A stretch of DNA of 64,000 nucleotides from Candidatus Uhrbacteria bacterium (GCA_016844925.1 JAERTI010000035.1:4949-68948); one strand, 5' to 3'; shown: positions 15,945 through 64,000, numbered from the stretch's first letter. The notes: generated by a model from the sequence alone, not told the origin. Numbers and translations are program-made.

Positions 15945-17270
15945 ATGTCGAATCGATTGCGTCTCCTTCTTTTTCTGGCATTTCTGCTCATGTTTTTGAT
16001 TGCAGCACCTCTTTTGGTTCTTTATACGGCTGGCTATAGGTTCGATATGGGATCTGGACACATTGTCCATACGGCCGTCCTGAACATCTCGTCCATTCCG
16101 AGAAATGCCAACGTGTATATCGACGGCCAACCAGAGACAGACCGAACTCCCGCTGTTATAGAAACCGTTCTTCCTGGAGAGCATGAAATTCAATTGCAGA
16201 AAAAAGGATACATCACCTGGACACAAAACCTCTTCTTTAAAAGCCGGGAGGCCACCTTTGCCACCGACACGGTTCTCTTTCTTGATGAGAGCCCTGAACC
16301 CATCCAAGAACTTACCTCCATCCAATCCGCCATTAGTCCGACAGGCGACCTCTTGGTGTATCTCACTCAGGAAAGTTCTTGGTTAGAACTCTGGAGCACA
16401 ACAGGTTTTGAGGACTCGACTCGACTCCTCATGCGCCTGCCTCATGATGCCTCTAGTGAGTATTCAATCTCGTTTTCTTTAAGCGGTGACTACATCCTCC
16501 TTGCTCGAGAGGAAGGTTCCTTCTCTGAACTCACCATCGCCGACACGCAAAATGGCGACCTCGTGAGTCTCCCCATTCCCCTTTCAGATACTCTTGCATA
16601 TTGGTGGGACACACAACGTGATGACTTGCTCTACGTAGCCTTTACTGACACGTCCTACCAAATTGACCTGACAGCGAGTACGGAGACGCTTCTCATGGAC
16701 GACATGGAGCGCATGACTACGTTTGATGATCGAGACGTTCTTCTCACAGAACACAATAGCCGTGCTGTGCTCTCGTTCCTGGAGGATGACACTGCTTCCA
16801 TCATCACCTACCTCCCCCTGGGAACCTACTTCTTTGTCCCCGCACCAGCACCTCTCATCGGACTGTTTGATGCTCAGCACGAGAGACTCGTTCTCATCGA
16901 TTCTGAAAACCGCGATCAACCTATCCTGCTTAATGAAGCTGCCGCGCAATGGGAATGGAATGAGAACGATCAGCAACTTCTCTACTCCAGTGGCTTTGAC
17001 CTGCGTCTCTACGATCGTTATCAACACGAATCTGACACGCTTACTCGTCTAAGCGACCCCATCGAGCACCTGACATGGTACCCACAGGGCTCCGTTGTGC
17101 TCTACCAAGCCGCCGGAACAACGTATGCTTTAGCCGTTCAAGACCCACAACCTGAGCACTTGGCGCTCATCGAAGAAGCTCCGGGGCTCTTCTGGTTCGT
17201 AGACGACGCCCAGAACCTCCTTCTCCTCAGTGACGAAGGTGCTATGTGGAAACGACCTCTGCAAAAATAA
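15945..17270 (+). CDS. PEGA-domain membrane protein (the only large plus-strand gene in the first 27 kb)
   Basis: An N-terminal TM helix is followed by a PEGA-like block NANVYIDGQ...TPAVIETVLPGEHEIQLQKKGYITW. Confidence 0.55.
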   Translation: MSNRLRLLLFLAFLLMFLIAAPLLVLYTAGYRFDMGSGHIVHTAVLNISSIPRNANVYIDGQPETDRTPAVIETVLPGEHEIQLQKKGYITWTQNLFFKSREATFATDTVLFLDESPEPIQELTSIQSAISPTGDLLVYLTQESSWLELWSTTGFEDSTRLLMRLPHDASSEYSISFSLSGDYILLAREEGSFSELTIADTQNGDLVSLPIPLSDTLAYWWDTQRDDLLYVAFTDTSYQIDLTASTETLLMDDMERMTTFDDRDVLLTEHNSRAVLSFLEDDTASIITYLPLGTYFFVPAPAPLIGLFDAQHERLVLIDSENRDQPILLNEAAAQWEWNENDQQLLYSSGFDLRLYDRYQHESDTLTRLSDPIEHLTWYPQGSVVLYQAAGTTYALAVQDPQPEHLALIEEAPGLFWFVDDAQNLLLLSDEGAMWKRPLQK

Positions 17271-17304
17271 ACAGACCCTCATGGGCCTGTTTACCTTCTC
17301 TTGA

Positions 17305-18387
17305 TTACAGCTCGATAAAACTATTATCTCCCACAACCAGCCGATGGCTGGTTTTTGGATGGGAGCGTTTATGATCTACCAACGTCGCATTGACACCAAT
17401 CAGACTATTTACAATCCGTCTCGTTGTGTCGATCGTCGCTCCGTCAAACACGATGGAGTGCTCAACCTCACTATCTTTGATTGTCACATCGTCACCAATG
17501 GCCGTGTACGGTCCAATGAAACTCGATTCGATCGTGCAGTTTTTTCCGATCGCTACCGGCCCTCGAATCAAACAGTCACTCGCGATAGTCGACCCTTCAC
17601 CGATCGACACAAGCCCCTGGATTTGCGCATCAACGTGTGGCTTGCAATCGACACAGAATTCTCCACGCTCCATATCATCCATGATCAGAGCATTCCCCTC
17701 GATCAGCGCATCCGGAGTTCCTGTATCCTTCCACCAACCCGTAATCTCCTCGTGCCCAACCTTTCCATTGCGGATGTACCACGTAATGATGTCGGTGATC
17801 TCGTACTCTCCACGTGCGGAAGGCTCCGCTGTCTTGAACGCTTCAAAAAACTTTTCATCAAATAGATAGATCCCTGTCACAGCAAACGGTGATGGCGGAT
17901 CTTTTGGTTTCTCCACCGTGCGCTTAAGTGTGCCATCAGCATGGAACTCTGCCACACCAAAGCGGTGCGGGTCCTTTACCTCTGAGAGGGCGATCATGCA
18001 GTCAAGATCTTCATTCTGAAACCGGTCGACAAACTTGTTGATCGATCCAAGGATAATGTTGTCCCCTAAGAAGAACAGGAAGCGCTCACCCTTGAGGTGC
18101 TCCTCAGCATTGGCCACAACGTGCGCGAGCCCCTTGGCTCCACCGCGCTGCTCCAAGTACGTAATCTTGGCACCGAACTCTGACCCATCTCCCAGGGCGT
18201 CAGACATATACTTCACCTCGCCTGGATTGACGTTGATGATGATGTCTTTAATCCCTGCATCCGTCACCTTTTTTAGCACATACCAAAGCATGGGCTTATT
18301 GGCCATGGGGATCAAATGTTTGTTTCGTGTCCACGTAATGGGACGAAGGCGCGTCGCGCGGCCTCCAGCAGCAATAAGGGCTTTCAT
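17305..18387 (-). CDS. Sugar-1-phosphate nucleotidyltransferase, long form with C-terminal left-handed beta-helix (glucose-1-phosphate thymidylyltransferase-like)
   Basis: The start is MKALIAAGGRATRLRPIT (GGxGTRL). A GDNI motif and C-terminal hexapeptide repeats are present. It is adjacent to rmlB/rmlD-like genes. Confidence 0.75.
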   Translation of the reverse strand: MKALIAAGGRATRLRPITWTRNKHLIPMANKPMLWYVLKKVTDAGIKDIIINVNPGEVKYMSDALGDGSEFGAKITYLEQRGGAKGLAHVVANAEEHLKGERFLFFLGDNIILGSINKFVDRFQNEDLDCMIALSEVKDPHRFGVAEFHADGTLKRTVEKPKDPPSPFAVTGIYLFDEKFFEAFKTAEPSARGEYEITDIITWYIRNGKVGHEEITGWWKDTGTPDALIEGNALIMDDMERGEFCVDCKPHVDAQIQGLVSIGEGSTIASDCLIRGPVAIGKNCTIESSFIGPYTAIGDDVTIKDSEVEHSIVFDGATIDTTRRIVNSLIGVNATLVDHKRSHPKTSHRLVVGDNSFIEL

Positions 18388-18438
18388 ACGGCGATACTCT
18401 AGCTCGAGTACGAAATGGCGTCAAACACTTTAGATAAG

Positions 18439-18495
18439 AAAAAGCAGCCGTATTTCAGGCTGCACGTAGCTCAATCTGTGTTCCGGAACAGGCGC
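18439..18495 (-). repeat. Conserved ~55-bp multi-hairpin 3' element D1 (terminator plus palindromes) after the high-GC Nudix gene 18531-19391
   Basis: The sequence AAAAAGCAGCCGTATTTCAGGCTGCACGTAGCTCAATCTGTGTTCCGGAACAGGC matches 19473-19530 at about 45 of 52 positions. On the minus strand GCAGCCtgaaatacGGCTGC plus TTTTT is a rho-independent terminator. Further palindromes tgttccggaaca and ggcgcccgtaagcgcc follow. Confidence 0.65.
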
Positions 18496-18530
18496 CCGTA
18501 AGCGCCTCTACTGGATCCTAGATCAAACCG

Positions 18531-19391
18531 TCAGAGCGAGAGGCCACACAGGGCCAGGCCCGCCAGGGTGAGCGCGTCGTCGAAGGCCCCCTGAGCGTTG
18601 GCCTGCTTGAGCTGCTCCATGGTCATCAGCTGCGATCCGCCGATGATCTCCAGGTTCTCCGGGTTGGCCTCGCCGACCGACTCGATCTCAGCTTCCACCA
18701 CCCACTGCGGATGCAGGAAGAAGGTGGGATTGGCGTTCACGGTGCCGCGAAGCTTGGCGTCGACGATCTTGAAGCCACCCTCTTCGCCCGCCTCGATCTT
18801 GGCGGTCTTGAGAACGAACTCCTCGAGGTCCATGTCACCAGGGTCACCCTGGATCAGCCCACGCGGAGCCTCCCACTTCCACTCACCGGCCATGCTCAGG
18901 AGCTTGTCCCAGAGCTGTCCAGCGTCCAACAGCTTCATGTAGTCGTTGCCCGGGGGAATGAGTGCTCCCGCGAGCTCTGACTTCATCTCGAGCCCCTGCT
19001 CGGGAGTCAGAAGCGTCCAGCTGTGCTCGCCGACCTCGGTCATCTCGAGGATGTCCAGTTCTCCTTCTCCGGCATCCCGACGAACGACCGTGGGTCGACG
19101 CATGGTCATGCGGCGCTGCTGCACCACACCGATGCGATCCCCCATCCGGGCGATCACGATGGCACCGGGCTTCTCCACGATCAGCGGCTGGTCGTACAGC
19201 GGAATGACTTCTCCGCTCTCACGCTTCCAGAGCACGCCACGCAGCATCGCCCACCCCATCGGGTTGACGAGGCCACCCACCCCCACGCTCGTGGGCTTCC
19301 AGCCGACCACGGGCTTGTCCCACGGATTCGTCTGGGTGAAGTGTTCCTGGTGCAGGAGGGTGATTCCTCCGGTCAAATCATCTTGTGGCAT
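18531..19391 (-). CDS. Nudix hydrolase, ADP-ribose pyrophosphatase-like, high-GC foreign-type
   Basis: It has the ADPRase-like KPGAIVIARMGDRIGVVQQRR. The Nudix box is GDMDLEEFVLKTAKIEAGEEGGF (G-x5-E-x7-[I]E-x-x-EE-x-GF, with R replaced by I). GC3 is saturated and an aaggag SD precedes the start. Confidence 0.55.
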   Translation of the reverse strand: MPQDDLTGGITLLHQEHFTQTNPWDKPVVGWKPTSVGVGGLVNPMGWAMLRGVLWKRESGEVIPLYDQPLIVEKPGAIVIARMGDRIGVVQQRRMTMRRPTVVRRDAGEGELDILEMTEVGEHSWTLLTPEQGLEMKSELAGALIPPGNDYMKLLDAGQLWDKLLSMAGEWKWEAPRGLIQGDPGDMDLEEFVLKTAKIEAGEEGGFKIVDAKLRGTVNANPTFFLHPQWVVEAEIESVGEANPENLEIIGGSQLMTMEQLKQANAQGAFDDALTLAGLALCGLSL

Positions 19392-19472
19392 TAACCAATC
19401 TCCTTTCGGGTCTGCCCCAATGGCAGATGCGGAAATTAGTCTAAAAAGCCGATGTTGTCAATGGTTTCAATA

Positions 19473-19530
19473 AAAAAGCAGCCGTATTTCAGGCTGCGCG
19501 TAAGACAATCTGCGTTCCGAAATAGACCCG
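19473..19530 (-). repeat. Conserved 3' element D2, a copy of D1, after the high-GC Nudix-fold gene 19566-20420
   Basis: The sequence is AAAAAGCAGCCGTATTTCAGGCTGCGCGTAAGACAATCTGCGTTCCGAAATAGAC. The same terminator hairpin is followed by an atagac...gtctat hairpin. Downstream TTTTGGATCAAAGATC resembles the TGGAT motif of the junction modules. Confidence 0.65.
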
Positions 19531-19565
19531 ATTTCCCCTGTCTATTTTGGATCAAAGATCATCTT

Positions 19566-20402
19566 CTAGTAGACGTACTCGTGGTAGCCGGTGCGACCAA
19601 GCTCCTTGCGAGCCTTCAGAATCTTCTCGAACTTCTGCGCGAGTTCGCGCACGTCACTCTCTCCGACGTGGTAGTTGCACGCATGCAGCGGTCCGCTCCG
19701 ACGATGATCGTCCGTGGACCAGTCGTACGTATGGCCGTACATGAGCCGAAACTCAAAGGTCCATCCCCCCCGCTTGCGACGGCTCTTTCGCTTGAGCCGA
19801 TTGACGATGGGACGCAGGTCCGTCATCAGGACCCCCCTGACCATCGGCGGCATGGAGCACCAGTCCTCCACCGTGTCCGAGACGACGATGTTGCCATCGG
19901 ACATGAGTTGAAGAGAAAGGCTGTGAATGTCCCAGTTGTGCGAGACACTTTCGACAACCGTCTGGGCCGCCAAAGGAATCTCACGGGGCGGTTGGATGTA
20001 GCCGTACACCTGGGCGCGAAGGATCGCTTCTGCATCGGGGTAGCCGCCCAGTTCTCCGTTGAGAACTAGCTTGTAGAAGACATCCACGGTCAGCCATGCA
20101 CCAGCTTGGGTGTCAGGGCGCCGCTCCACATCCGTAAGGATGAAGAAGTGATGCTTCACGTGACCCTGGGTCAAGTAGCAAACCGAAATGGCCCGACTGG
20201 TCTCCATCAGAATCACACCACACTGTTCCTTGGCCACCCTGAGAGCCGTGTTGCCTAGGAGCTCATCGGCCTCAGGCGCTCCAGCCGCCACCCGTGGATG
20301 CGGATTCAGCTTTGTGGAGGCAAGCACGATCTTGCCGTCACGGGTGAGTGGGAGCACGATCGCCATCGGCTCGATGGGGGTTTTCTTGTTGGTATCTGTC
20401 AT
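19566..20402 (-). CDS. Nudix-fold protein with degenerate Nudix box, high-GC foreign-type
   Basis: The ATG is at 20400-20402 (MTDTNKK). The ORF track extends to a GTG at 20420. The block is IVLPLTRDGKIVLASTKLNPHPRVAAGAPEADELLGNTALRVAKEQCGVIL, with box GAPEADELLGNTALRVAKEQCGV. Conserved G, E7, R15, E19 and G22 are kept, but REU is replaced by RVA and EE by EQ. A ~110-aa C-terminal extension has no recognised family. Confidence 0.5.
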   Translation of the reverse strand: MTDTNKKTPIEPMAIVLPLTRDGKIVLASTKLNPHPRVAAGAPEADELLGNTALRVAKEQCGVILMETSRAISVCYLTQGHVKHHFFILTDVERRPDTQAGAWLTVDVFYKLVLNGELGGYPDAEAILRAQVYGYIQPPREIPLAAQTVVESVSHNWDIHSLSLQLMSDGNIVVSDTVEDWCSMPPMVRGVLMTDLRPIVNRLKRKSRRKRGGWTFEFRLMYGHTYDWSTDDHRRSGPLHACNYHVGESDVRELAQKFEKILKARKELGRTGYHEYVY

Positions 20403-20468
20403 CACATCCCTTTCTGGCACGATGTGCGTTTGTTTTTATCGATGCCAGGAGAATAACTTAGTTTTTTT

Positions 20469-20501
20469 CGGTTTGTTCGTCAATCCAAAAACCAGGCGTT
20501 C
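20469..20501 (-). repeat. Terminator-promoter junction module, variant B (GTCAATCCAAAAACCAGGCGTTCGCCTGGTTTT)
   Basis: It matches 32332-32365 at about 29 of 32 positions. On the minus strand it is the hairpin AAAACCAGGCGAACGCCTGGTTTTT followed by GGATTGACG, a TTGACG -35 element. A TAAGTT -10-like element lies 17 nt later, about 40 nt ahead of the high-GC gene's ATG. Confidence 0.6.
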
Positions 20502-20516
20502 GCCTGGTTTTATTGC

Positions 20517-21362
20517 TTATTCTGCGTTCTTTGCTTCAGCGTACTTCTCGAGGGTATCTCTCAGTGCCTCTCCGATAGGCCGCATGGTAATCCCCACCTT
20601 AGCGAGGTTCTCGTTCGCCAAGAAGTTATTTGATCGCCCCTTGGTTGCAAGCCCCTGTGCGACCAACTCTTCATTGCTAATCCACTCATTTGTGTGAGAC
20701 GGATCAACCAGCTCCTCATAGAGCCCGATCAACTCTCGGTGTCGCATGGTTCCCGGGTTGCTCACGTGGAAGATTCCTGCCGCGCGTTTCTCCAGAAGCT
20801 GATGGAACACGTCAATCATGTCCTCAACAATCGTCACGGAGTTCTCCACGTCGATCACCTTTGGATAGCTCGCGAGCTTGTTGATCAAGTTTCCAGGCGC
20901 CGGCTTCCAGTCGATCGGCATGCGGATGCGGGCGATCCCCACATTCGGAAGTGTCGAGAGAACGAGATCCGCAGCCCACTTTGTGCGTGAGTACACCGGT
21001 TGTGGGTTCCCCATGTCATCTTCACGCCACGCCTTGTCTTCATGCGCAGAGTCGCCGTAGAAGATACAACCCGACCCCATGTGCAAGAGGTAGACCCCAC
21101 GCTGCTGACATGCGTCAGCAAGCACGATCGGTTCGAGCGTGTTGCCACGAATCGTCTCGAGCTGATGATCCTCACACCAGTCTACGTTCGGCACACCCTT
21201 AATGCCCGCAGCATTGAATACGACGTCAGGACTATGTGCATCTATCTCAGCAAGCGCCTCATCTACGGTAGAAATAATCTTTTCAGAGAGAACAGCCTCA
21301 TCCCCCCAAGCCTCCTTACAACGCCGACCCATATAGCCAGCTCCGATGATCAAAATCTTCAT
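20517..21362 (-). CDS. NAD(P)-dependent sugar epimerase/reductase, RmlD-like (dTDP-4-dehydrorhamnose reductase family)
   Basis: The gene was trimmed to MKILIIGAGYMGRRC (ATG 21360-21362, 1 nt after the rmlB stop). It has a Rossmann fold and YSRTK (YxxxK). The listed 39-aa N-terminal extension is unlikely. Confidence 0.6.
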   Translation of the reverse strand: MKILIIGAGYMGRRCKEAWGDEAVLSEKIISTVDEALAEIDAHSPDVVFNAAGIKGVPNVDWCEDHQLETIRGNTLEPIVLADACQQRGVYLLHMGSGCIFYGDSAHEDKAWREDDMGNPQPVYSRTKWAADLVLSTLPNVGIARIRMPIDWKPAPGNLINKLASYPKVIDVENSVTIVEDMIDVFHQLLEKRAAGIFHVSNPGTMRHRELIGLYEELVDPSHTNEWISNEELVAQGLATKGRSNNFLANENLAKVGITMRPIGEALRDTLEKYAEAKNAE

Positions 21363-21363
21363 G

Positions 21364-22365
21364 CTATCGATCTTTATATTGCTTATCGTAATACTCCTTG
21401 TACGCACCTGTCCGGCACCCGTCGACCCAGTCCGTGTTGGTCTTGTACCAATCAACAGTCTTGGCGAGCCCTTCCTCAAAACTGGTCAGCGGCTCCCAAC
21501 CACATTCCGTGCGAAGCTTGGTTGAATTGATAGCGTAGCGGCGGTCATGTCCAGGACGATCCTTTACGTACTCAATCGCATCCTCCCCACGGCCCGTGAG
21601 CTCAAGCAACTTTCGCGTCACATCCATGTTTGGCACGCGGTACCCGGTTCCGATGTTGTACGTCTCCCCCAAGCGCCCTTTCTCTGCAATGGCCTCAATG
21701 GCGCGACAGTGGTCCTCGGTGAAGATCCATTCGCGAATCTGCTGGCCATCGCCGTAGACTGGCACGGTCTTTCCCTCAAGGAGGTTCATGGTGAACAGCG
21801 GGATCAACTTCTCTGGGAACTGATACGGACCGTAGAAGTTGCATGAGTGCGTAATAATCACCGGCGTGCCGTAGGTCACTGCATAGGAGTGACAAAGGTG
21901 ATCACCTGCCGCCTTCGATGCGCTGTAGGGTGACCGTGGCTCAAATTTATCTTCCTCAGAACTCTCCCCTTCCATGACGGCTCCGTACACCTCGTCAGTA
22001 GAGATATGCACCATGCGAGGAATCTCGTGCTTGCGCACCGCCTCAAGAAGGTTATAGACACCCTGAATGTTCGTGTCGATAAACGCCTTCGGCTCAAGAA
22101 TCGAACGGTCTACGTGCGTCTCCGCCGCATAGTTGATTATGAGGTCCATACCCTGTACCACCTTATCGACAGCATCGGCATCAGCAATCGATCCTTTCAC
22201 AAACGTGTATCGAGGATCATCCTGAATATCAGACAAACTCGTCAGGTTTCCTGCGTAGGTCAGATTGTCAAAGTTCACAATCTCCACATCCTCACGTGTG
22301 CGAAGCAGATAGTGGATCATATTCGACCCCATGAATCCCGCACCTCCGGTAATCAATATTTTCAT
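21364..22365 (-). CDS. rmlB: dTDP-glucose 4,6-dehydratase
   Basis: MKILITGGAGFMGSNMIHYLL (GxxGxxG) is followed by ISTDEVYG, PYSASKAAGDHL and HVDRSI-type motifs typical of RmlB. Confidence 0.85.
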   Translation of the reverse strand: MKILITGGAGFMGSNMIHYLLRTREDVEIVNFDNLTYAGNLTSLSDIQDDPRYTFVKGSIADADAVDKVVQGMDLIINYAAETHVDRSILEPKAFIDTNIQGVYNLLEAVRKHEIPRMVHISTDEVYGAVMEGESSEEDKFEPRSPYSASKAAGDHLCHSYAVTYGTPVIITHSCNFYGPYQFPEKLIPLFTMNLLEGKTVPVYGDGQQIREWIFTEDHCRAIEAIAEKGRLGETYNIGTGYRVPNMDVTRKLLELTGRGEDAIEYVKDRPGHDRRYAINSTKLRTECGWEPLTSFEEGLAKTVDWYKTNTDWVDGCRTGAYKEYYDKQYKDR

Positions 22366-22925
22366 ACTTGCTTTTCGATATACTCAACGACTTTTTTTCT
22401 TACAAGGCACCAAGCTGAGATACTAAATCCATCCCATATCTCCCCCGATCCAATCGCTTCATCCACCTCTTCGACCGTCATAAGCACCGACTCAAACGAT
22501 TCAAACTCATCTGGATTCGTCTCTCCGGCCACAAGTCCGTGTGCAAGATACACCCTCATATACTCCTCAAACAATCCGTTCGCTGGAGCAACCTCTCGAA
22601 TTTTCTCGATATGCCCTGCGGTATACCCCGTCTCCTCTTGAAGCTCTGCAACCGCAGCCTCCTCATCTGTTTGTTCGAGCTTTATTCCTCCCGACGGAAA
22701 CTCGAGACTCACTCTATCGAACAAGTATCGATACTCTCGATGAAGCACCAGGCGACCATCATCAAGAACCGGCACAATAATAACAGACCCAACAGGAGTC
22801 TTCATGTAGTAGTAGTCCCCCTGCTTCCCATCAGGCGTCTCGAATCGCTTGTGAAGAAATTCTGTCCATGGATTCTTGTGGAGAGATTCTGTCTTCAATG
22901 TCTTCCATGACTTCATAGACTGCAC
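22362..22925 (-). CDS. Nudix hydrolase (ADP-ribose pyrophosphatase-like)
   Basis: The Nudix box is GGIKLEQTDEEAAVAELQEETGY. The ADPRase-like N-terminal strand is GSVIIVPVLDDGRLVLHREYRY. Confidence 0.75.
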   Translation of the reverse strand: MQSMKSWKTLKTESLHKNPWTEFLHKRFETPDGKQGDYYYMKTPVGSVIIVPVLDDGRLVLHREYRYLFDRVSLEFPSGGIKLEQTDEEAAVAELQEETGYTAGHIEKIREVAPANGLFEEYMRVYLAHGLVAGETNPDEFESFESVLMTVEEVDEAIGSGEIWDGFSISAWCLVRKKVVEYIEKQV

Positions 22926-29572: not shown

Positions 29573-30346
29573 TCAGCCAGCCACCAGCGTCGGCTCGATG
29601 CCGCGCCGGGAAAACCACTGCGTCCGCTCGGCGTAGAGCGTGAGCAGGAGGTTCATGGGGCTGATGCCGCCGGTCTCCCAGGCCTGGGTGAAGGCATCAG
29701 ACACCGGGGCGGTCTCTCCGGTCAAGATGGCGTGCGGACGCCCGGCTCCGACGATGGAACCTGTGGTCAAACGCTCACCACCTCGAATCAGATCGATCAG
29801 ACGCTTCTGCCCAACCGGACCACCCTCGTCCCAGTGCCGCAGCAGCGACGTCACCCAGAAGTTGGGGTCCAGAAGGGTCCTGTCGAGCTCCGTCTCATCG
29901 AACTCACAGAGGAAGAACGACGCGCGCACGAGACAGGCTCCGCCCATCCGCGCTCGCGTGAAGTTGCTGCGCTTGATGCGCGCCTTCCACAGCACGGCGG
30001 AGCTGAGATCCGCACCCACGAAGGACACATCTCGATTCACCACCACGCCGGACAGGTTGGCTTCGGATAGATCCGCGCCATCGAAGCGTGCGTCCATCAT
30101 CTGGGCACCTGACAAATCGATCCCCGCGAGATTGGATCCATGCAGGTTCGTTCCCATCAACGACACACCTCGCATCTGCGCCCCGTCGAAGTCGAACCCG
30201 TGCAGGTCCATCTCGTCGAGGTTCACGCCGTCTAGGTTTCCTCGAACCCGAAGCTCCTCAGGCTTCCTTCCCTTTCCGTTGTTCGTACGCCACTCCACCA
30301 AGACCTCAGGCCCAGCCGAAATGGCACTCATAGCACTCAAATGCAT
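29573..30346 (-). CDS. Pentapeptide-repeat protein (MfpA/Qnr-like right-handed quadrilateral beta-helix), high-GC foreign-type
   Basis: The gene was trimmed to the ATG at 30344-30346 (MHLSAMSAIS), with an aaaggaga SD 6 nt upstream. It carries tandem A(D/N)LxG pentapeptides (NLDGVNLDEMDLHGFDFDGAQMRGVSLMGTNLHGSNLAGIDLSGAQMMDARFDGADLSEANLSG). GC3 is saturated. Confidence 0.7.
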   Translation of the reverse strand: MHLSAMSAISAGPEVLVEWRTNNGKGRKPEELRVRGNLDGVNLDEMDLHGFDFDGAQMRGVSLMGTNLHGSNLAGIDLSGAQMMDARFDGADLSEANLSGVVVNRDVSFVGADLSSAVLWKARIKRSNFTRARMGGACLVRASFFLCEFDETELDRTLLDPNFWVTSLLRHWDEGGPVGQKRLIDLIRGGERLTTGSIVGAGRPHAILTGETAPVSDAFTQAWETGGISPMNLLLTLYAERTQWFSRRGIEPTLVAG

Positions 30347-30471
30347 GCGAATGTCTCCTTTACAGACCTTCGCCAAACCAAGTGCGTCCCCACGGCAAGA
30401 CTAGAGAACGGGGGTTAAAAAGTCAAAAGAAAAGAGAGACTCGTGGAGTCTCTCGACCGAGGCAGGCTCGG

Positions 30472-32272
30472 TCAGTCGCGAATGGTGAGCTCGCTTTGCA
30501 GACGCTCGAGCTCGGTGAAGAGCGGACTGCCTACACGTAGTTCGTCACGTGTTCCTTGTGCCACCACACGCCCCTCGTCCATCACCACGATGTGGTCGGC
30601 GCGCTGGATGGTGGAAAACCGGTGAGCAATGACGATCGTCGTGCGCCCCTGACGAAGCTCCTCAAGCGCGGCTTGAATCCGCGCCTCGGAAATGACGTCT
30701 AGGTTGCTGGTTGCCTCATCGAAGATGAGCAGGCGTGGATCCCGCAGGATCGCACGAGCGATGCCGATGCGCTGACGCTCCCCTCCAGAGAGGTCAAGGC
30801 CCTTCTCACCGACAATGGTGTCGTACCCATCAGGCTTGCGCTCGATGAACTCGTGCGCGCCAGCCAGATCGGCGGCAGCGCGGATCTCTGCCTCGCTCGC
30901 ATCCGGACGCCCGTAGGCGATGTTGTCTCGGATGGAGATGGAGAAGAGCTCCACATTCTGCGGCACGATGCCGATCTGACGCCGCCAGTCCTCGAGGTTG
31001 AGAACCCTCAGATCGTCTCCGTCGACCTCAATGGCGCCGCTGTGAACATCGTAACCACGCAGCAAAAGCGTCACGAGGGTGGACTTCCCCGATCCGGAGG
31101 GTCCAACAAGTGCCACCATCTCTCCAGAGTGAGCCGTGAAGCTCACATCCTTCACACCCGTTCCGTTGCCGTCGTAGGAGAACGATACTTGATCGAAGAC
31201 GACATCACCCTCCAACCTATCCATCCTGATCGCTGTGGGGAGCGATACCACCTCGGGCTGCTTGTCCAGCAGGTCCATGAGGTGCATGAGTGCTTCCTGG
31301 TTGCGCCCCAGCTCCATCCACTCTCGTGTCACAGTGCGACACGAACGAATGAGCCGGTCGTTCAGCTGCAGGAGCATCACCATGGTTCCCAGGGTGAGGG
31401 TGTTTGCCTCAAGGCCCCAGAGCCCGATCAAGATCACCAACGCTCCTGAGATGTTGGCCATCCCGTCACGGAGATATCCCCCAAGCATGACGCGTGCCCA
31501 CTGCACCCACTCCACCGATCGAATCTTCGCAAGAATCTCCGAAATGCGGCCACGCTCGTGTTGCTCGCGACCGAACGCTTGGACCGTTGCGATGTTGCCG
31601 AGCGCCTCGTACCCAATGGTGCTTGACCGTTGGTAGAGCTTTTCCATTCTCTGCCGGTAGGCTTTCAGCGACCTGAAGTCGTAGGCAACCCACACGCCGG
31701 TGATCACCCCTAGGACCAAACTCAGCACCCCGACACGCCACTCAAGGATCAGAAGAGCAACTGAGAAGACAGGGATGGTGAGCACCTCAGGAAGAAGCCT
31801 ACCAAACACGCGGTCGGTTAGCTGACTCGCGGCGTTCACACCACGGTCGATCTTGGTGATCTGCTTGCTGGTGTTCTCCTGGACGTGGTGCCCGATGGAG
31901 AGCTTGAGCAAGTGACTCATGGTGAGCACTGGCATGCGCTCGCTCATGAGCAAGTACAGCCGGAGCCAGGTTCGCTGGTTGAGTACTCCCACCGTGCTGG
32001 AGGCGACCTCCACCAACACTTTGGCCAGCAAGATGACACCAGCGAGCCACCACATGGTGTTCGTCTCCGGCATCCATCCGCGAAGAGCCTCGACGGTCTT
32101 GACCTCAGCTCCCATCTGCGGCATGCCCCAGACGTTGATGAGGTCGAAGACCAGCTTGTTGATGTACGGGGCGGCGAGCCCCATCACGGTCACCATAGCC
32201 ATCAGGCCCATGGACCAGATGATGTCACGTTTGAAAGGACGAATGAGCGCCCAGTACCTTCTCCAGAAGTTC
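30472..32272 (-). CDS. ABC transporter, fused permease-ATPase exporter (MsbA/MDR type), high-GC foreign-type
   Basis: The ATG is at 32270-32272, preceded by ggagg. A 6-TM domain is followed by an NBD with Walker A GPSGSGKST, the signature LSGGERQRIGIARA and Walker B LLIFDEATSNLD. GC3 is saturated. Confidence 0.85.
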
Positions 32273-32331
32273 ATGTCGACCTCCAATTTGTTCTAGGCGA
32301 ACGCAGGAAAGTACCTAATTTTGGGGATTTT

Positions 32332-32365
32332 GTCAATCCAAAAACCGAGCGTTCGCTCGGTTTTT
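32332..32365 (-). repeat. Terminator-promoter junction module, variant C (GTCAATCCAAAAACCGAGCGTTCGCTCGGTTTTT)
   Basis: It is a near-copy of 20469-20501. On the minus strand the hairpin AAAAACCGAGCGAACGCTCGGTTTTT is followed by GGATTGACA (-35 TTGACA). After 17 nt comes TACTTT (-10-like), then GGAGG and the ATG of the ABC exporter. Confidence 0.6.
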
Positions 32366-61896: not shown

Positions 61897-64000
61897 CTAG
61901 GGGCAGTCGACGATGTCGTCGTTGTCGACGTCACCGTCGCAGTCGTTGTCGATGCCGTCGCTGCAGGCGAGGGACTCGTCACCGGCCGGGCTGGCCAGGG
62001 ACTCGTCGTCGTCGCAGTCGCCATCAAGCGGCGTGTAGGTGTCGCCGTCGTCGTCCGCGACGCAGTCGCTGTCGCCCGCGTCGACATCGTCGATGTCGTT
62101 GTCGCAGTCGTTGTCGATCCCGTCGGTGCAGAGCTCGTAGGAGATCTCGTACATCTCGGGGTTGACGTACTCGTCGGAGTCGTCGCAGTCCCCGCCCGAG
62201 GCCGAGTAGCCCGTGGGCTCCTCGCACTGGATCAGGGTCGCGGCGCTGTCGTCGCCGTAGCCGTCGCCGTCCACGTCGTCGTACCACTCGGTGGCCGTCG
62301 AGGTGTCCAGGTCGCCGTCGTCGTCGTCGATCAGACCGTCGCAGTCGTTGTCGACGCTGTCGCACTCCTCGGTGGCCGAGGTGTTGATGGCGCTGTCGCC
62401 GTCATCGCAGTCGTCGCTGTTGCTGGCGTAGCCGCTGGGCACGCTGCAGTCTTCGGTGCTGGAGGCGGGGTCGCCCTCGCCGTCACCGTCGACGTCCTCG
62501 TAGAAGGTCGTGGTGACCCCCTCGTCGGTGCTGCCGTCGCAGTCGTTGTCGACGCTGTCGCACACCTCGGTGGCCGAGGTGTTGATCGTGCTGTCGGAGT
62601 CGTCGCAGTCCAGGAAGTTGACCACGTAGCCGCTGGGCTGGCTGCACTCGTCGGTGGAGTTCGAGCTGTCGCCCTCGCCGTCACCGTCGGTGTCCGCGTA
62701 GTAGGTGGTCTCGACCCCCTCGTCCACGGTGCCGTCGCAGTCGTTGTCCTGCGTGTCGCAGTACTCGGTGGCGCCCGGGTAGGTGCCGGCGTCGTTGTCG
62801 TCGCAGTCGGTGCTGTCGCTGACGTACCCGCTGGGGGCGCTGCAGGCGTCGTCCGTGCTGCTGGCGTCGCCGTAGCTGTCGCCGTCACCGTCGGCGTAGA
62901 AGGTCGTCTCGACCCCCTCGTCCACGGTGCCGTCGCAGTCGTTGTCGATCTCGTCGCAGGTCTCCGTGGCGCTGGTGTTCACGGCGCTGTCGCCGTCGTC
63001 GCAGTCGCTGGAGTCCGAGACGTAGCCGCTGGGCTGGCTGCAGGACATGGTCGAACTCGAGCTGTCGCCCTCGCCGTCGCCGTCCTGGTCGATGTAGAAC
63101 GTCGAACCCGTGGAGGTGTCCACGGAGGTGTCGTCGTCGTCGATGTCGCCATCGCAGTCGTTGTCGACGCTGTCGCACACCTCGGTGGCCGAGGTGTTGA
63201 TGGCGCTGTCGCCATCGTCGCAGTCGTCGGCGTTGCTGACGTAGCCGCTGGGCTGGCTGCAGGCGTCGTCGGTGGAGCTGCTGTCGCCCTCGCCGTCGCC
63301 GTCGGTGTCCGCGTAGTAGGTGATCTCGACCCCCTCGTCCACGGTGCCGTCGCAGTTGTTGTCGATCAGGTCGCACACCTCGGTCTCACCGGGGTTGGCG
63401 GCCGCCTCGGCGTCGTCGCAGTCGCTGGAGTTCGCCACGTACCCGCTGGGGGCGCTGCAGGCGTCGTCCGTGTTGCTCAGGTCGCCGTAGCCGTCGCCGT
63501 CGCCGTCCGCGTAGTAGGTGGTCTCGACCCCCTCGTCCACGGTGCCGTCGCAGTTGTCGTCGGTCTCGTTGCAGACCTCCGCGGCGCTCGGGTTGACCGA
63601 GGAGTCGGTGTCGTCGCAGTCACCGTCGATGGCCACGTACCCGCTGGGGGCGCTGCAGCTCACGTAGGTGTCCGAGGTCTCACCGTAGCTGTCGCCGTCG
63701 GTGTCGCCGTACCAGGTGGACGCGTCCGAGGACGTGTCCGGGTCGACGGTGCCGTCGCAGTCGTTGTCCGCGCCGTCGCAGACCTCCGTACCACCGGGGT
63801 AGCTGGAGGCGTCCGCGTCGTCGCAGTCGCTGTTGTCGTCCACGTAGCCGCTGGGGGCGTCGCAGGCGGGCACGGCCGTGCCGGAGCTGTCGCCGAAGGT
63901 GTCGCCGTCGCTGTCGACGTACCAGTCGGTGGCGTCCGCGGAGGTCGACGGATCGATGTTGCCATCGCAGTCGTTGTCCACGTCGTCACAGACCTCGGAG
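61897..64000 (-). CDS. Cys/Asp-rich tandem-repeat protein with MopE-type putative metal/calcium-binding motif repeats, high-GC foreign-type; the 5' end probably runs off the window
   Basis: About 12 repeats of ~60-70 aa have the pattern YxDxDGDGxGD....C..PSGYV....DCDDxDxxxNxxATExCDxxDNDCDGxxDEGV. GC3 is saturated. The alternative-frame ORFs 62024-63376 are shadows. The reading frame continues upstream of the M at 63981 to the window end. Confidence 0.7.
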   Translation of the reverse strand, partial: SEVCDDVDNDCDGNIDPSTSADATDWYVDSDGDTFGDSSGTAVPACDAPSGYVDDNSDCDDADASSYPGGTEVCDGADNDCDGTVDPDTSSDASTWYGDTDGDSYGETSDTYVSCSAPSGYVAIDGDCDDTDSSVNPSAAEVCNETDDNCDGTVDEGVETTYYADGDGDGYGDLSNTDDACSAPSGYVANSSDCDDAEAAANPGETEVCDLIDNNCDGTVDEGVEITYYADTDGDGEGDSSSTDDACSQPSGYVSNADDCDDGDSAINTSATEVCDSVDNDCDGDIDDDDTSVDTSTGSTFYIDQDGDGEGDSSSSTMSCSQPSGYVSDSSDCDDGDSAVNTSATETCDEIDNDCDGTVDEGVETTFYADGDGDSYGDASSTDDACSAPSGYVSDSTDCDDNDAGTYPGATEYCDTQDNDCDGTVDEGVETTYYADTDGDGEGDSSNSTDECSQPSGYVVNFLDCDDSDSTINTSATEVCDSVDNDCDGSTDEGVTTTFYEDVDGDGEGDPASSTEDCSVPSGYASNSDDCDDGDSAINTSATEECDSVDNDCDGLIDDDDGDLDTSTATEWYDDVDGDGYGDDSAATLIQCEEPTGYSASGGDCDDSDEYVNPEMYEISYELCTDGIDNDCDNDIDDVDAGDSDCVADDDGDTYTPLDGDCDDDESLASPAGDESLACSDGIDNDCDGDVDNDDIVDCP

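What the first reader, a model, noticed from the sequence alone, without database searches (positions are those of the whole stretch)
18388..20516. Tandem pair of high-GC Nudix-fold gene cassettes, each followed by the same ~55-bp multi-hairpin element
Seen in sequence: 18439-18495 and 19473-19530 share AAAAAGCAGCCGTATTTCAGGCTGC[R]CGTA..CAATCTG[Y]GTTCCG. That is a terminator hairpin (GCAGCC-8 nt-GGCTGC plus T-run on the coding strand) followed by further palindromes (tgttccggaaca and ggcgc-ccgtaa-gcgcc in D1, atagac-12 nt-gtctat in D2). Each copy sits immediately 3' of one of two adjacent, same-orientation foreign-type Nudix genes (18531-19391, ADPRase-like, and 19566-20402, degenerate Nudix box). 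The upstream cassette is fed by junction module B. The layout (promoter, then gene plus 3' element, then gene plus 3' element) resembles a cassette array. No integrase is in the window, and no GTTRRRY core is present, so a classical integron attC is not supported. Inference: the two cassettes were acquired or duplicated as units carrying their own 3' structured element. Both are Nudix-fold proteins.
Basis: seen in the sequence. Interest (0 to 1): 0.65.

Follow-up and report, generated by a model that had tools for sequence, protein, structure and literature searches.

The report
Structured 3' RNA tails on Nudix genes
Two neighbouring Nudix-fold genes inside a sugar-nucleotide (rml) locus of an uncultured Patescibacteria-type bacterium each end in the same ~98-nt RNA structure, a long stem-loop plus a terminator; they are long-term residents of this locus with duplicated regulatory flanks, not imported mobile cassettes.

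Summary
It is a ~98-nt element (window 18435-18532 and 19469-19568, minus strand). It starts 1-3 nt after each stop codon and consists of a 21-25-bp imperfect stem-loop (SL1), a short linker and an intrinsic terminator. Eight versions from related metagenomic contigs fold the same way. Pairing is 92% (28-46% in shifted controls) and 11 of 25 pairs show compensatory changes. The element is absent from Rfam and occurs only in this locus.

Both genes are Nudix-fold, of the ADP-ribose / NDP-sugar hydrolase type. Gene A keeps the catalytic glutamates. Gene B has a degenerate Nudix box.

The "foreign cassette array" reading fails:
- Gene A keeps its position between the rmlD-like gene and rmlA in at least five lineages.
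- All detectable relatives of gene B sit in the same slot, two of them with an intact Nudix box.
- Gene B is truncated or absent in several relatives.
- There is no attC core, no recombinase and no link to phages or plasmids.

What does hold is modularity. Each gene has its own promoter-like site, a 5' hairpin and the 3' element. These homologous flanks coincide with gene presence/absence and gene-order differences between lineages.

Best reading: insulated monocistronic units whose 3' structure ends the transcript and probably sets mRNA fate. This is a modest novelty, a new lineage-restricted structured 3'-UTR RNA.

The parts
20517..21362 (-). rmlD-like reductase/epimerase gene. It forms the upstream border of the variable slot.
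   Evidence: Pfam RmlD_sub_bind and Epimerase. The 281-aa orthologues occupy the same position in L001, L047 and L057.
20455..20511 (-). Junction module. It holds the terminator hairpin of the rmlD-like gene (20488-20511), then a -35-like TTGACG (20483-20478) and a -10-like TAAGTT (20460-20455) that would drive gene B.
   Evidence: The terminator is picked up by the scan. The module is conserved in L001, L004, L047 and L057. A second copy lies at window 32329-32364, 86% identical, with compensatory changes in the stem. The promoter function is inferred from the consensus and its conservation.
20414..20448 (-). 5'-UTR hairpin of gene B (CTGGCA ... TGCCAG), followed by a GGGA Shine-Dalgarno-like site.
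   Evidence: Read from the sequence. A hairpin at the same position (CTGYC-loop-GRCAG) precedes A-type and B-type genes in L001, L004, L047, L054, L056, L057 and L059.
19566..20402 (-). Gene B (278 aa). It has an N-terminal Nudix-fold domain with a degenerate Nudix box (RVAKEQ where REUxEE is expected), and a C-terminal domain of about 120 aa with the conserved basic motif LKRxSRRxxGxW.
   Evidence: Pfam NUDIX E = 0.002, below the curated cut-off. Remote homologues are P0042-P0046. Alignment. The AF2 model has pLDDT 77, and Foldseek matches residues ~10-140 to Nudix/ADPRase structures at E = 2e-6.
19469..19568 (-). 3' element copy D2. SL1 stem-loop 19565->19502 (25 bp), linker, terminator hairpin 19497->19478, U-run 19477->19472.
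   Evidence: Fold -35.8 kcal/mol, z = -5.2. Covariance model 95.9 bits. The orthologous copy lies behind the gene B remnant in L057, 81% identical.
19433..19461 (-). Promoter-like site for gene A: TTGACA, 17 nt, TAATTT.
   Evidence: Read from the sequence. It is positionally equivalent to TTGACA-17-(TG)CTAAnTT in L004, L047, L057 and L059. It fell below the threshold of the simple scan, so it is inferred.
19412..19426 (-). 5'-UTR hairpin of gene A (CTGCC-ATTGG-GGCAG), followed by the AAGGAG Shine-Dalgarno site.
   Evidence: Sequence. Identical in L001. Equivalent hairpins occur in L004, L047 and L057.
18531..19391 (-). Gene A (286 aa), a Nudix hydrolase of the ADP-ribose / NDP-sugar pyrophosphatase structural type. 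Its Nudix box GDMDLEEFVLKTAKIEAGEEGGF keeps the glutamates.
   Evidence: 40 homologues, all from Patescibacteria-type MAGs, none with a Pfam hit. Conserved E200, E204 and G206. AF2 pLDDT 93. Foldseek top hits are ADPRase, Bdellovibrio NDP-sugar hydrolase, GDP-mannose hydrolase YffH and NUDT14, at E about 5e-8.
18435..18532 (-). 3' element copy D1. SL1 stem-loop 18529->18468 (23 bp, 5 G.U pairs), linker, terminator hairpin 18463->18444, U-run 18443->18439.
   Evidence: Fold -38.6 kcal/mol, z = -4.25. Covariance model 106.8 bits. Orthologous copies lie behind gene A in L001-3, L004 and L047-49.
18396..18424 (-). rmlA promoter-like site: TTGACG, 17 nt, TAGAGT, ending 8 nt before the rmlA ATG.
   Evidence: Promoter scan 9 of 12. 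Conserved in L001, L004 and L059.
17305..18387 (-). rmlA-like glucose-1-phosphate nucleotidyltransferase gene. It forms the downstream border of the slot.
   Evidence: Pfam NTP_transferase, E = 1.8e-50.

Best explanation
The region is a two-gene 'slot' inside a native dTDP-sugar (rml) locus of a Patescibacteria/Peregrinibacteria-like bacterium. The slot lies between the rmlD-like gene and rmlA. It holds two unrelated Nudix proteins of the ADPRase / NDP-sugar hydrolase type.

Gene A is probably an active NDP-sugar or ADP-ribose pyrophosphatase. Gene B is an older occupant of the slot. It has lost its N-terminal domain and its catalytic Nudix residues.

Each gene is built as an insulated monocistronic unit. 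The parts, in order, are: a sigma-70-like promoter, a short 5' hairpin, a Shine-Dalgarno site, the ORF, a 21-25-bp imperfect RNA stem-loop (SL1) starting 1-3 nt after the stop codon, a 4-7-nt linker, and a canonical intrinsic terminator.

The repeated '55-bp element' is this ~98-nt 3'-UTR RNA. It ends transcription before the next promoter and gives the mRNA a doubly structured 3' end. That end most likely sets mRNA stability, either by blocking 3' exonucleases or by offering an entry site of about two helical turns for a dsRNA-specific nuclease such as RNase III. Because SL1 begins at the stop codon, a terminating ribosome must open its base.

Two copies exist because the 5' and 3' regulatory modules were duplicated when the slot came to hold two genes. 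These homologous flanks are the likely substrates of ordinary homologous recombination that adds, deletes or reorders the genes between lineages.

Shown: the repeat, the conserved structure with covariation, the Nudix folds, the synteny, the presence/absence and order differences, and the lack of integron features.
Inferred: promoter activity, the effect on mRNA stability or processing, the ribosome coupling, and the recombination route.
For: Repeat and structure:
- 53 nt at 87% identity, with only two copies in the window.
- Seven versions fold into the same SL1 plus terminator, with z-scores from -3.1 to -7.9.
- RNAalifold finds the same consensus on its own, with 11 of 25 pairs changed on both sides.
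- 92% of cells are paired, against 28-46% when partners are slid. 0 of 500 shuffles reach the observed covariation.
- SL1 is 21-25 bp in all eight versions, starts 1-3 nt after the stop codon, and holds 2-5 G.U pairs.
- Sense covariance-model scores are 83-107 bits, against 19-26 bits antisense.

Resident genes, not imports:
- Gene A is syntenic between the rmlD-like gene and rmlA in L001-3, L004, L047-49, L052, L057 and L059.
- Gene B relatives P0042, P0043, P0044 and P0046 all lie in the same slot.
- P0044 and P0046 keep a canonical Nudix box, while the window copy is degenerate.
- GC3 of A and B is 0.64-0.82 in every 45-52% GC relative, against 0.43-0.69 for the rml flanks.

Modular flanks and gene turnover:
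- Gene B has 5' and 3' UTRs homologous to those of gene A, but an unrelated CDS.
- L001-3 lack B. At that point, 11 nt in L001 correspond to 1033 nt in the window.
- In L057, B is a 147-aa remnant flanked by a 19-nt direct repeat, CCTGGTTTTATGATTGACA.
- L059 has the order A-B, with both genes followed by the element and preceded by the same 5' hairpin.
- L047 and L059 share a gene A that is 98% identical, yet their SL1 is only 62% identical.

Folds.
Against: - No expression data exist, so promoters, transcript ends and any effect of SL1 on stability are unproven.
- Two of the three promoter-like sites fall below the threshold of the simple promoter scan.
- Only eight distinct element versions are available, from a handful of related lineages. 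The covariation statistics are therefore based on few independent events, and the shuffle control does not correct for relatedness.
- Folding energy favours the sense strand in only 6 of 8 versions, so a DNA-level role for the inverted repeat is not excluded.
- The sequences of the basal stem (RAUCU/AGAUU) and of the terminator loop (UGAAAUAC) are conserved beyond what a stem alone needs. This hints at a sequence-specific partner that the model does not name.
- The persistent GC excess of both genes is unexplained.
- The direction of change (gain of B in the window lineage, or loss in L001-3) cannot be settled. The 21-nt promoter spacer of L001 matches neither window copy.
Confidence: 0.6

Rival explanations
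1. The 3' element has a specific regulatory role beyond ending the transcript. It could be an RNase III (or other dsRNA-binding protein) retroregulation site. It could also be released as a 3'-UTR-derived small RNA whose conserved single-stranded parts, the linker UACGY and the loop UGAAAUAC, pair with other targets. Either way it would tie Nudix hydrolase levels to dTDP-sugar synthesis.
For: - The stem length stays at 21-25 bp, about two helical turns, while its sequence turns over.
- The basal stem RAUCU/AGAUU and the 8-nt terminator loop are conserved in sequence as well as in pairing.
- The element is better conserved than the neighbouring coding sequence. The B element is 81% identical between the window and L057, against 49% for the CDS. 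The A element is 75-80% identical, against 59-74% for the CDS.
- Known precedents, cited from titles and abstracts only: mapped RNase III cleavage sites in E. coli mRNAs (PMC5371410); a regulatory mRNA 3'UTR in S. aureus (PMC9217812); the 3'-UTR-derived sRNA GlnZ (10.1101/2022.04.01.486790); terminator loops acting in regulation (PMC11979758).
Against: - No transcript data are available.
- No target complementarity was sought or found.
- Gene A homologues outside the clade manage with a plain terminator (L052, L061), so SL1 is dispensable for the gene as such.
- The apical half of SL1 is freely replaced.
Confidence: 0.2
2. The two genes are mobile gene cassettes. The 3' hairpin would be their recombination site, attC-like and recognised as folded single-stranded DNA, so the region would be an integron-like array served by a recombinase elsewhere in the genome.
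For: - Each gene is followed by an imperfect hairpin of 54-64 nt with conserved ends and a variable centre.
- Gene content and gene order in the slot differ between lineages: A alone, B alone, B-A, A-B.
- In L047 a homing-endonuclease-like ORF is inserted right after the element.
Against: - No GTTRRRY or RYYYAAC cores on either strand.
- No recombinase among 38 of 49 window ORFs scanned, nor in the called genes of the syntenic loci.
- Each gene has its own promoter-like site, whereas integron cassettes are promoterless.
- All 13 element copies found lie in one chromosomal slot. There are no hits in 185,579 species genomes, the JGI metagenome collection or viral contigs beyond chance.
- The element is followed by a terminator and scores far better on the sense strand.
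- The junctions of the B insertion or deletion lie in the promoter module, not in the hairpin.
Confidence: 0.04
3. The two genes are recent horizontal imports from a high-GC donor, which would explain their GC excess. The shared element came in with them.
For: - GC is 59-64% against 51% for the window.
- Gene B has no close relative among 5.8 billion proteins.
- Gene A is 97-98% identical between genome pairs whose flanking genes are only 88-95% identical. That could reflect recent exchange.
- A 66% GC relative (L052) carries gene A in the same synteny.
Against: - The same GC excess is seen for A and B in every 45-52% GC relative, across lineages that have diverged to 50-70% protein identity.
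- Synteny is conserved.
- The divergence of gene B (51% to L057, 43% to L059) ranks the same two relatives in the same order as gene A (72% and about 60%), as expected for co-inheritance.
- No phage or plasmid homologues.
Confidence: 0.1
4. The element is simply the organism's standard terminator, found behind many unrelated genes. Its occurrence twice here would then be uninformative.
For: - Its 3' part is a textbook intrinsic terminator.
- Another junction module, a terminator plus -35, is indeed reused elsewhere in the window, at 32329-32364.
Against: - A full-sensitivity covariance-model search finds only these two copies in 64 kb.
- It finds none in about 140 kb of related loci outside the slot.
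- Exact-pattern scans of public genomes, metagenomes and viral contigs return only chance hits.
- Only 64 kb of this genome could be searched.
Confidence: 0.05

Closest known systems
Intrinsic (Rho-independent) terminators preceded by a 3'-UTR stem-loop, such as mRNA-stabilising 3' hairpins and RNase III-sensitive retroregulators like lambda sib (from my own knowledge)
   Same: A GC-rich hairpin plus U-run lies at the gene end. A second, longer hairpin lies just upstream, of roughly RNase III substrate length (21-25 bp). The element sits in the 3' UTR of a single gene.
   Different: Here the whole 98-nt module is conserved with covariation across lineages and is shared by two unrelated genes in tandem. 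The stem starts at the stop codon. No processing or stability data exist for it.
Integron attC sites and gene-cassette arrays
   Same: An imperfect hairpin with conserved ends and a variable centre lies 3' of each gene. The genes are tandem and in the same orientation. Gene content varies between strains.
   Different: There are no R''/R' core sequences, no IntI, own promoters and a terminator. All copies are confined to one conserved chromosomal slot. The indel junctions lie in the promoter module, not in the hairpin.
ADP-ribose pyrophosphatase / NDP-sugar hydrolase branch of the Nudix superfamily (NudF, Bdellovibrio NDPSase, E. coli YffH/NudK, human NUDT14). From my own knowledge, E. coli GDP-mannose mannosyl hydrolase WcaH/NudD is a precedent for a Nudix gene inside a polysaccharide gene cluster.
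   Same: Both proteins share this fold. Gene A keeps the Nudix-box glutamates. The genes lie inside a sugar-nucleotide locus that also encodes an NDPSase_N-type Nudix protein in relatives (22362-22925).
   Different: Gene A is too divergent for Pfam or NCBIfam and replaces the box arginine by I/L/M. Gene B has lost two box glutamates and carries an uncharacterised C-terminal domain. The substrates are unknown. Nudix-fold dTDP-sugar 2,3-dehydratases (EvaA type, PMC8987622) are a further possibility but did not appear among the top 50 fold matches listed for each model.
Dispersed intergenic hairpin repeats (REP/BIME, Neisseria Correia elements, pneumococcal BOX/RUP) (from my own knowledge)
   Same: These are structured repeats in 3' UTRs and intergenic regions. 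They can carry promoter or terminator signals, and some are RNase III substrates.
   Different: Those are present in tens to hundreds of dispersed copies. This element has two copies, both in one locus, and is inherited with that locus.

Membership tests
Integron gene cassette / attC | Inverse core RYYYAAC (R'') and core GTTRRRY (R') at the ends of the hairpin | tested here: not met
   A regex scan of 18380-18540, 19385-19575 and 20395-20525 on both strands found none.
Integron gene cassette / attC | Adjacent IntI-type tyrosine recombinase and attI site | tested here: not met
   No Phage_integrase or other recombinase domain in the 38 of 49 window ORFs of at least 150 aa that were scanned. None in the precomputed Pfam tables of the syntenic loci. 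The remaining 11 large ORFs and the rest of the genome were not scanned.
Integron gene cassette / attC | Promoterless cassettes that occur in different arrays and contexts | tested here: not met
   Each gene is preceded by a conserved -35/-10-like site. All copies of the element and of both genes lie between the rmlD-like gene and rmlA.
Intrinsic terminator | GC-rich stem-loop followed directly by a U-run on the coding strand | tested here: met
   GCAGCC-UGAAAUAC-GGCUGC followed by U5-6 at 18463->18439 and 19497->19472. The stem is 100% paired in eight versions. Termination activity itself was not tested.
Conserved structured RNA element (cis-regulatory 3'-UTR motif) | A secondary structure kept across homologues through compensatory changes | tested here: met
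   11 of 25 pairs are changed on both sides. 92% of cells are paired against 28-46% in slid controls. 0 of 500 shuffles reach the observed value. Caveat: only 8 sequences from related lineages.
Any Rfam family | Match to a curated covariance model | tested here: not met
   Only three chance-level matches (E of 2.1 or more, far below gathering scores) in 17000-22000.
Nudix hydrolase superfamily (gene A) | Nudix alpha/beta/alpha fold | tested here: met
   AF2 pLDDT 93. Foldseek hits to ADPRase, NDP-sugar hydrolase and YffH at E about 5e-8, probability 1.00.
Nudix hydrolase superfamily (gene A) | Nudix box GX5EX7REUXEEXGU with catalytic glutamates | tested here: met
   GDMDLEEFVLKTAKIEAGEEGGF. 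E200, E204 and G206 are invariant or nearly so in 41 sequences. The box arginine is replaced by I/L/M. The Pfam PF00293 model itself gives no hit.
Nudix hydrolase superfamily (gene B) | Nudix fold | tested here: met
   AF2 pLDDT is 77 overall and about 85-90 for residues 10-110. Foldseek matches to Nudix/ADPRase structures at E = 2e-6 over about 130-140 residues. It is homologous to P0044 and P0046, which carry PF00293.
Nudix hydrolase superfamily (gene B) | Intact Nudix box / catalytic residues | tested here: not met
   GAPEADELLGNTALRVAKEQCGV: REUxEE has become RVAKEQ and the ELPRG motif is lost, whereas P0044 and P0046-P0050 keep ELPRGxRxPDExxxxCAIREAxEExG. Pfam NUDIX scores 18.6 bits, below the 21.1 cut-off.
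Dispersed repeat families (REP / MITE-like) | Many copies scattered through the genome | tested here: not met
   Two copies in 64 kb with speed filters off. None elsewhere in the related loci. The rest of the genome is not available.
RNase III substrate | About 20 bp or more of mostly continuous dsRNA, and cleavage by RNase III | not testable with these tools
   The stem length of 21-25 bp is compatible. Cleavage, and the presence of an rnc gene in this genome, could not be examined.

The most novel reading that the evidence does not exclude
The homologous 5' module (promoter plus hairpin) and 3' module (SL1 plus terminator) would form an integrase-free 'expression cassette' system. Homologous recombination between the modules would shuffle, add and delete alternative Nudix genes in one slot of the rml locus. 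The SL1/terminator RNA would at the same time be a trans- or cis-acting regulator (an RNase III target or a 3'-UTR-derived sRNA) that couples Nudix hydrolase dosage to envelope-sugar synthesis in reduced-genome CPR bacteria. The persistent GC3 excess of both genes would then be a footprint of recombination (GC-biased gene conversion).
Probability: 0.15. Interest if true: 0.55.

Novelty: new member of a known kind. Interest (0 to 1): 0.35.

Why it matters
Very few structured regulatory RNAs are known from Patescibacteria/CPR bacteria, and their gene regulation is almost unstudied because they are uncultured. This work yields a covariation-supported 3'-UTR RNA motif absent from Rfam. It also gives a clear picture of insulated single-gene transcription units inside a sugar-nucleotide locus, each with a promoter, a 5' hairpin, an ORF, a 3' stem-loop and a terminator.

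The locus also shows one Nudix enzyme being replaced by another. The older B-type gene decays or is lost wherever the A-type gene is present. This is a compact natural example of non-orthologous displacement, with duplicated regulatory flanks as likely recombination substrates.

Practically, the case warns that 'high-GC gene plus hairpin, repeated' should not be read as an integron-like array without checking synteny in relatives.

Tried and rejected
1. Duplication origin of the two coding regions. Rejected: BLASTP E = 2, hhalign probability 0.3%, six-frame hmmsearch and blastn found nothing beyond the UTR repeat.

2. Family scans of both proteins (Pfam, NCBIfam, PHROGs, PADLOC, PDB sequences). 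Nothing significant, apart from a sub-threshold NUDIX hit for B and a weak ADPRase hit for the gene A profile.

3. Genome-collection scan for GGAACRCAGATTGN{7,10}GCAGCC. It returned 42 hits against about 35 expected by chance (my estimate). The only Peregrinibacteria hit (L043) lies inside an ORF.

4. Metagenome scan for ACGYGCRGYCTGRAAYACGGCYGC. One chance hit inside a high-GC ORF. The viral scan gave none.

5. Rfam. Nothing.

6. attC cores. Absent.

7. The 554-aa ORF next to the element in L047 as a possible recombinase. It is a protein with a homing-endonuclease-associated repeat, not a tyrosine recombinase.

8. The 254-aa ORF upstream of gene B in L056 as a gene A homologue. Rejected.

9. 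Simple recent deletion of B in L001 by recombination between the two promoter copies of a window-like ancestor. Not supported, because the L001 spacer matches neither window copy. It resembles the junction module at 32.3 kb instead.

10. Strong within-genome homogenisation of D1 and D2. Not evident in the window, since D2 is as far from D1 as from its L057 orthologue. It is plausible only for the terminator halves in L059.

11. Look-up of the window's own contig through P0041. Not on record.

12. P0007 locus. The contig ends 59 nt after the gene, and only a plain terminator is seen.

Full report
**1. Observation**

All genes in 17.3-22.9 kb lie on the minus strand. In transcription order they are:
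- an rmlB-like dehydratase (21364-22365);
- an rmlD-like gene (20517-21362);
- gene B (19566-20402);
- gene A (18531-19391);
- rmlA (17305-18387).

18439-18491 and 19473-19525 are 87% identical over 53 nt. The first 25 nt are identical, none are expected by chance, and there is no third copy in the window. On the coding strand each copy ends in GCAGCC-UGAAAUAC-GGCUGC plus a U-run, which scores as an intrinsic terminator.

**2. The element is longer than described and is one RNA structure**

Aligning the 3' UTRs from stop codon to U-run shows homology over about 98 nt.

Folded as RNA, seven versions from the window and from relatives L004, L047, L057 and L059 adopt the same architecture:
- A long imperfect stem-loop, SL1, with a basal stem RAUCU/AGAUU, a middle stem UCC/GGA and a variable apex.
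- A linker of 4-7 nt.
- The terminator hairpin.

The z-scores run from -3.1 to -7.9.

RNAalifold predicts the same consensus independently, with 11 of 25 pairs changed on both sides. On that structure 92% of cells pair, against 28-46% when partners are slid by 1-3 columns. No shuffle out of 500 reaches the observed covariation.

SL1 is 21-25 bp in all eight versions, spans 54-64 nt, contains 2-5 G.U pairs and starts 1-3 nt after the stop codon (17 nt in L057).

A covariance model built from the alignment gives these results:

| Search | Result |
|---|---|
| Sense strand, known copies | 83-107 bits |
| Antisense strand, same copies | 19-26 bits |
| Whole window, speed filters off | only the two copies |
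| Related loci outside the slot | nothing |

Rfam has no match. Exact-pattern scans of 185,579 species genomes, the JGI metagenome collection and viral contigs gave only chance-level hits.

**3. The two proteins**

*Gene A (286 aa).* It has no Pfam or NCBIfam hit. It has 40 homologues, all from Patescibacteria-type MAGs (source labels: Peregrinibacteria, Falkowbacteria, Patescibacteria group). The alignment shows a Nudix box, GDMDLEEFVLKTAKIEAGEEGGF, with the glutamates conserved and the arginine replaced by a hydrophobic residue. The AlphaFold model is confident, pLDDT 93. Its best PDB matches are ADP-ribose diphosphatases, the Bdellovibrio NDP-sugar hydrolase, GDP-mannose hydrolase YffH and NUDT14, at E about 5e-8.

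*Gene B (278 aa).* It is an orphan in the word-indexed search. Exhaustive HMMER finds four true relatives. P0044 and P0046 (404-415 aa) carry an extra N-terminal domain and a canonical box, ELPRGxRxPDExxxxCAIREAxEExG. The window protein has RVAAGAPEADELLGNTALRVAKEQCG instead and lacks the N-terminal domain. Its model (pLDDT 77) matches Nudix/ADPRase structures over the first ~140 residues at E = 2e-6. The C-terminal ~120 residues, with the invariant basic motif L[KR]RxSRRxxGxW, have no match among the top hits.

A and B are not detectably homologous: BLASTP E = 2, hhalign probability 0.3%, and no six-frame signal.

**4. Context in relatives: a conserved slot, not imported cassettes**

The slot between the rmlD-like gene and rmlA holds different contents in different relatives.

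| Locus | Slot content |
|---|---|
| Window | B, then A |
| L001-L003 (gene A 97% DNA / 98% protein identity) | A only |
| L004 (72% protein identity) | A only |
| L047-49 (53%) | A, then a homing-endonuclease-like ORF |
| L052 (49%, a 66% GC genome) | A only |
| L057 and the P0002 contig | 147-aa B remnant, then A |
| L059 | PaaX-like ORF, then A, then B (order A-B) |
| L054 | B only |
| L056 | unknown 254-aa ORF, then B |

Every detectable B relative therefore sits in the same slot as gene A. This includes the 147-aa remnant P0043 (on the same JGI contig as P0002, and on L057), P0042, P0044 and P0046.

Both genes are consistently GC3-rich (0.64-0.82) compared with their rml neighbours (0.43-0.69) in all relatives with 45-52% GC genomes. 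The GC excess is thus an old, stable property. No phage or plasmid homologues exist.

B-type proteins are intact where A is absent (L054, L056). Where A is present they are degenerate, truncated or missing. This pattern fits functional displacement of B by A, which is an inference.

**5. Modular flanks**

Comparison with L001 shows that the window carries 1033 nt where L001 has 11 nt. The breakpoint lies between the -35-like ATTGAC and TTTCCGC of the gene A leader.

The extra segment has its own -10-like site and a 5' hairpin (CTGGCA..TGCCAG). Both resemble the leaders of gene A in L004 and L047. Its 3' UTR is homologous to that of gene A.

The D2 version of the element is orthologous to the element behind the B remnant in L057. 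The elements are 81% identical, while the adjacent coding sequence is only 49% identical. The B-A tandem with two elements therefore predates the split of these lineages.

In L057 the B cassette is flanked by a 19-nt direct repeat of the junction module, CCTGGTTTTATGATTGACA.

In L059 both genes are followed by GATTTTCTACGCGCGGTCTGAAATACGGCYGCTTTTTTGTTTG, and both are preceded by the same 5' hairpin, CTCTGTCATCCGGCAGGG.

The internal promoter and leader are homologous between L057 (driving A) and L059 (driving B).

L047 and L059 share a gene A that is 98.2% identical, but their SL1 is only 62% identical. The break falls at the stop codon.

Together these observations show that the untranslated modules, rather than the coding regions, are the repeated units. 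The boundaries of gene gain, loss and reordering fall in or next to them. Ordinary homologous recombination between such flanks is the simplest mechanism, and this is inferred. The direction of the window/L001 difference (gain or loss of B) cannot be decided.

**6. What it is not**

- *Not an integron.* There are no R''/R' cores. No recombinase was found in 38 of 49 ORFs of at least 150 aa. Each gene has its own promoter-like site, and all copies are confined to one slot.
- *Not a dispersed repeat or a generic terminator*, as far as 64 kb plus about 140 kb of relatives can show.
- *Not a tandem gene duplication*.

**7. Mechanism proposed**

Each Nudix gene is an insulated monocistronic unit. 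SL1 plus the terminator stop transcription ahead of the next promoter and give the mRNA a doubly structured 3' end.

Several features suggest more than passive termination:
- The stem length is constant at about two helical turns.
- The basal stem and the terminator loop (UGAAAUAC) are conserved in sequence.
- SL1 starts directly at the stop codon.

Together they point to control of mRNA stability or processing, for example protection from exonucleases or RNase III entry, modulated by terminating ribosomes. None of this is shown.

I put about 0.6 on the overall picture: resident genes, a structured 3'-UTR/terminator module, and flank-mediated recombination. Within that, I put about 0.2 on a specific regulatory role, either RNase III retroregulation or a 3'-UTR-derived sRNA.

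Published analogues, cited from titles and abstracts only:
- RNase III sites in E. coli mRNAs (PMC5371410).
- A regulatory mRNA 3'UTR in S. aureus (PMC9217812).
- The 3'-UTR-derived sRNA GlnZ (10.1101/2022.04.01.486790).
- Regulatory roles of terminator loops (PMC11979758).

A Nudix-fold role other than hydrolysis, such as a dTDP-sugar 2,3-dehydratase of the EvaA type (PMC8987622), is conceivable in an rml locus. It is not favoured by the fold matches.

**8. Verdict**

Novelty is modest. This is a new, lineage-restricted structured 3'-UTR RNA in CPR bacteria, together with a tidy case of gene displacement in a conserved slot. Interest 0.35.

Noticed in passing
window 32329-32364 (minus strand), with downstream genes 30472-32286 and 29573-30376: A second copy of the 'junction module' (terminator hairpin plus GGATTGAC -35) that precedes gene B. 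It is 86% identical, with compensatory changes in the stem (CCAGGCG/CGCCTGG to CCGAGCG/CGCTCGG). Its -10 region (GGTACTTTCC) resembles the gene A promoter of relative L001. It feeds another high-GC pair: an ABC transporter (GC 59%) and a pentapeptide-repeat protein (GC 62%).
   Followed up: partly
window 18531-19391 and 19566-20402; also L004, L047, L054, L056, L057, L059: Genes A and B have GC3 of 0.64-0.82, while the flanking rml genes have 0.43-0.69. This holds in every relative with a 45-52% GC genome. In a 66% GC genome (L052) and a 36% GC genome (L050), gene A follows the genome instead. The cause is unexplained. Candidates are codon selection, GC-biased gene conversion in a recombination-prone slot, or repeated introgression.
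   Followed up: partly
window 18396-18387 region; L001 3420-3451; L004 6896-6927; L059 7010-7038: The conserved rmlA promoter-like site TTGACG-17-TAGAGT ends only 8 nt before the ATG, and there is no Shine-Dalgarno sequence. This suggests that rmlA is translated from a leaderless or nearly leaderless mRNA.
   Followed up: no
L004 5901-5960: The gene A orthologue in L004 has an in-frame TAG where all other homologues have Gln (HFE*TNPW against HFTQTNPW). The gene caller therefore started the gene downstream. This could be a pseudogene, a sequencing error or a recoding event.
   Followed up: no
L047/L048/L049 5922-7586: A 554-aa ORF with a homing-endonuclease-associated repeat (PF18780, E = 2e-8) is inserted between the gene A 3' element and rmlA, with its own promoter-like site and terminator. 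It shows that this intergenic junction accepts insertions.
   Followed up: partly
window 18531-19391 vs L001; L047 vs L059: Gene A is 97-98% identical at the DNA level between genome pairs whose flanking housekeeping genes are only 88-95% identical. This fits either strong constraint on synonymous sites or recent exchange of gene A between lineages.
   Followed up: partly
window 61897-63981 (minus strand): A 68% GC region with 198-nt tandem repeats encodes a 694-aa protein with eight Cu-binding MopE-type metal-binding motifs (Pfam E = 1e-81). Its composition stands out sharply from the 51% GC window.
   Followed up: partly
window 19566-20402, residues ~185-215 of gene B; P0042-P0046: The C-terminal domain of the B family carries an invariant arginine/lysine-rich motif (DLxPIIxRLKRxSRRxxGxW), which is reminiscent of RNA-binding peptides. 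No structural match was found for this domain among the top PDB hits.
   Followed up: no
window 22362-22925 and the wider window: The locus holds a third Nudix gene (187 aa, PF00293; NDPSase_N-type in relatives) directly upstream of rmlB, and relatives carry a fourth small Nudix gene downstream. The whole window is an envelope-glycan region with several GT4/GT2 glycosyltransferases, Wzy_C and epimerases.
   Followed up: partly
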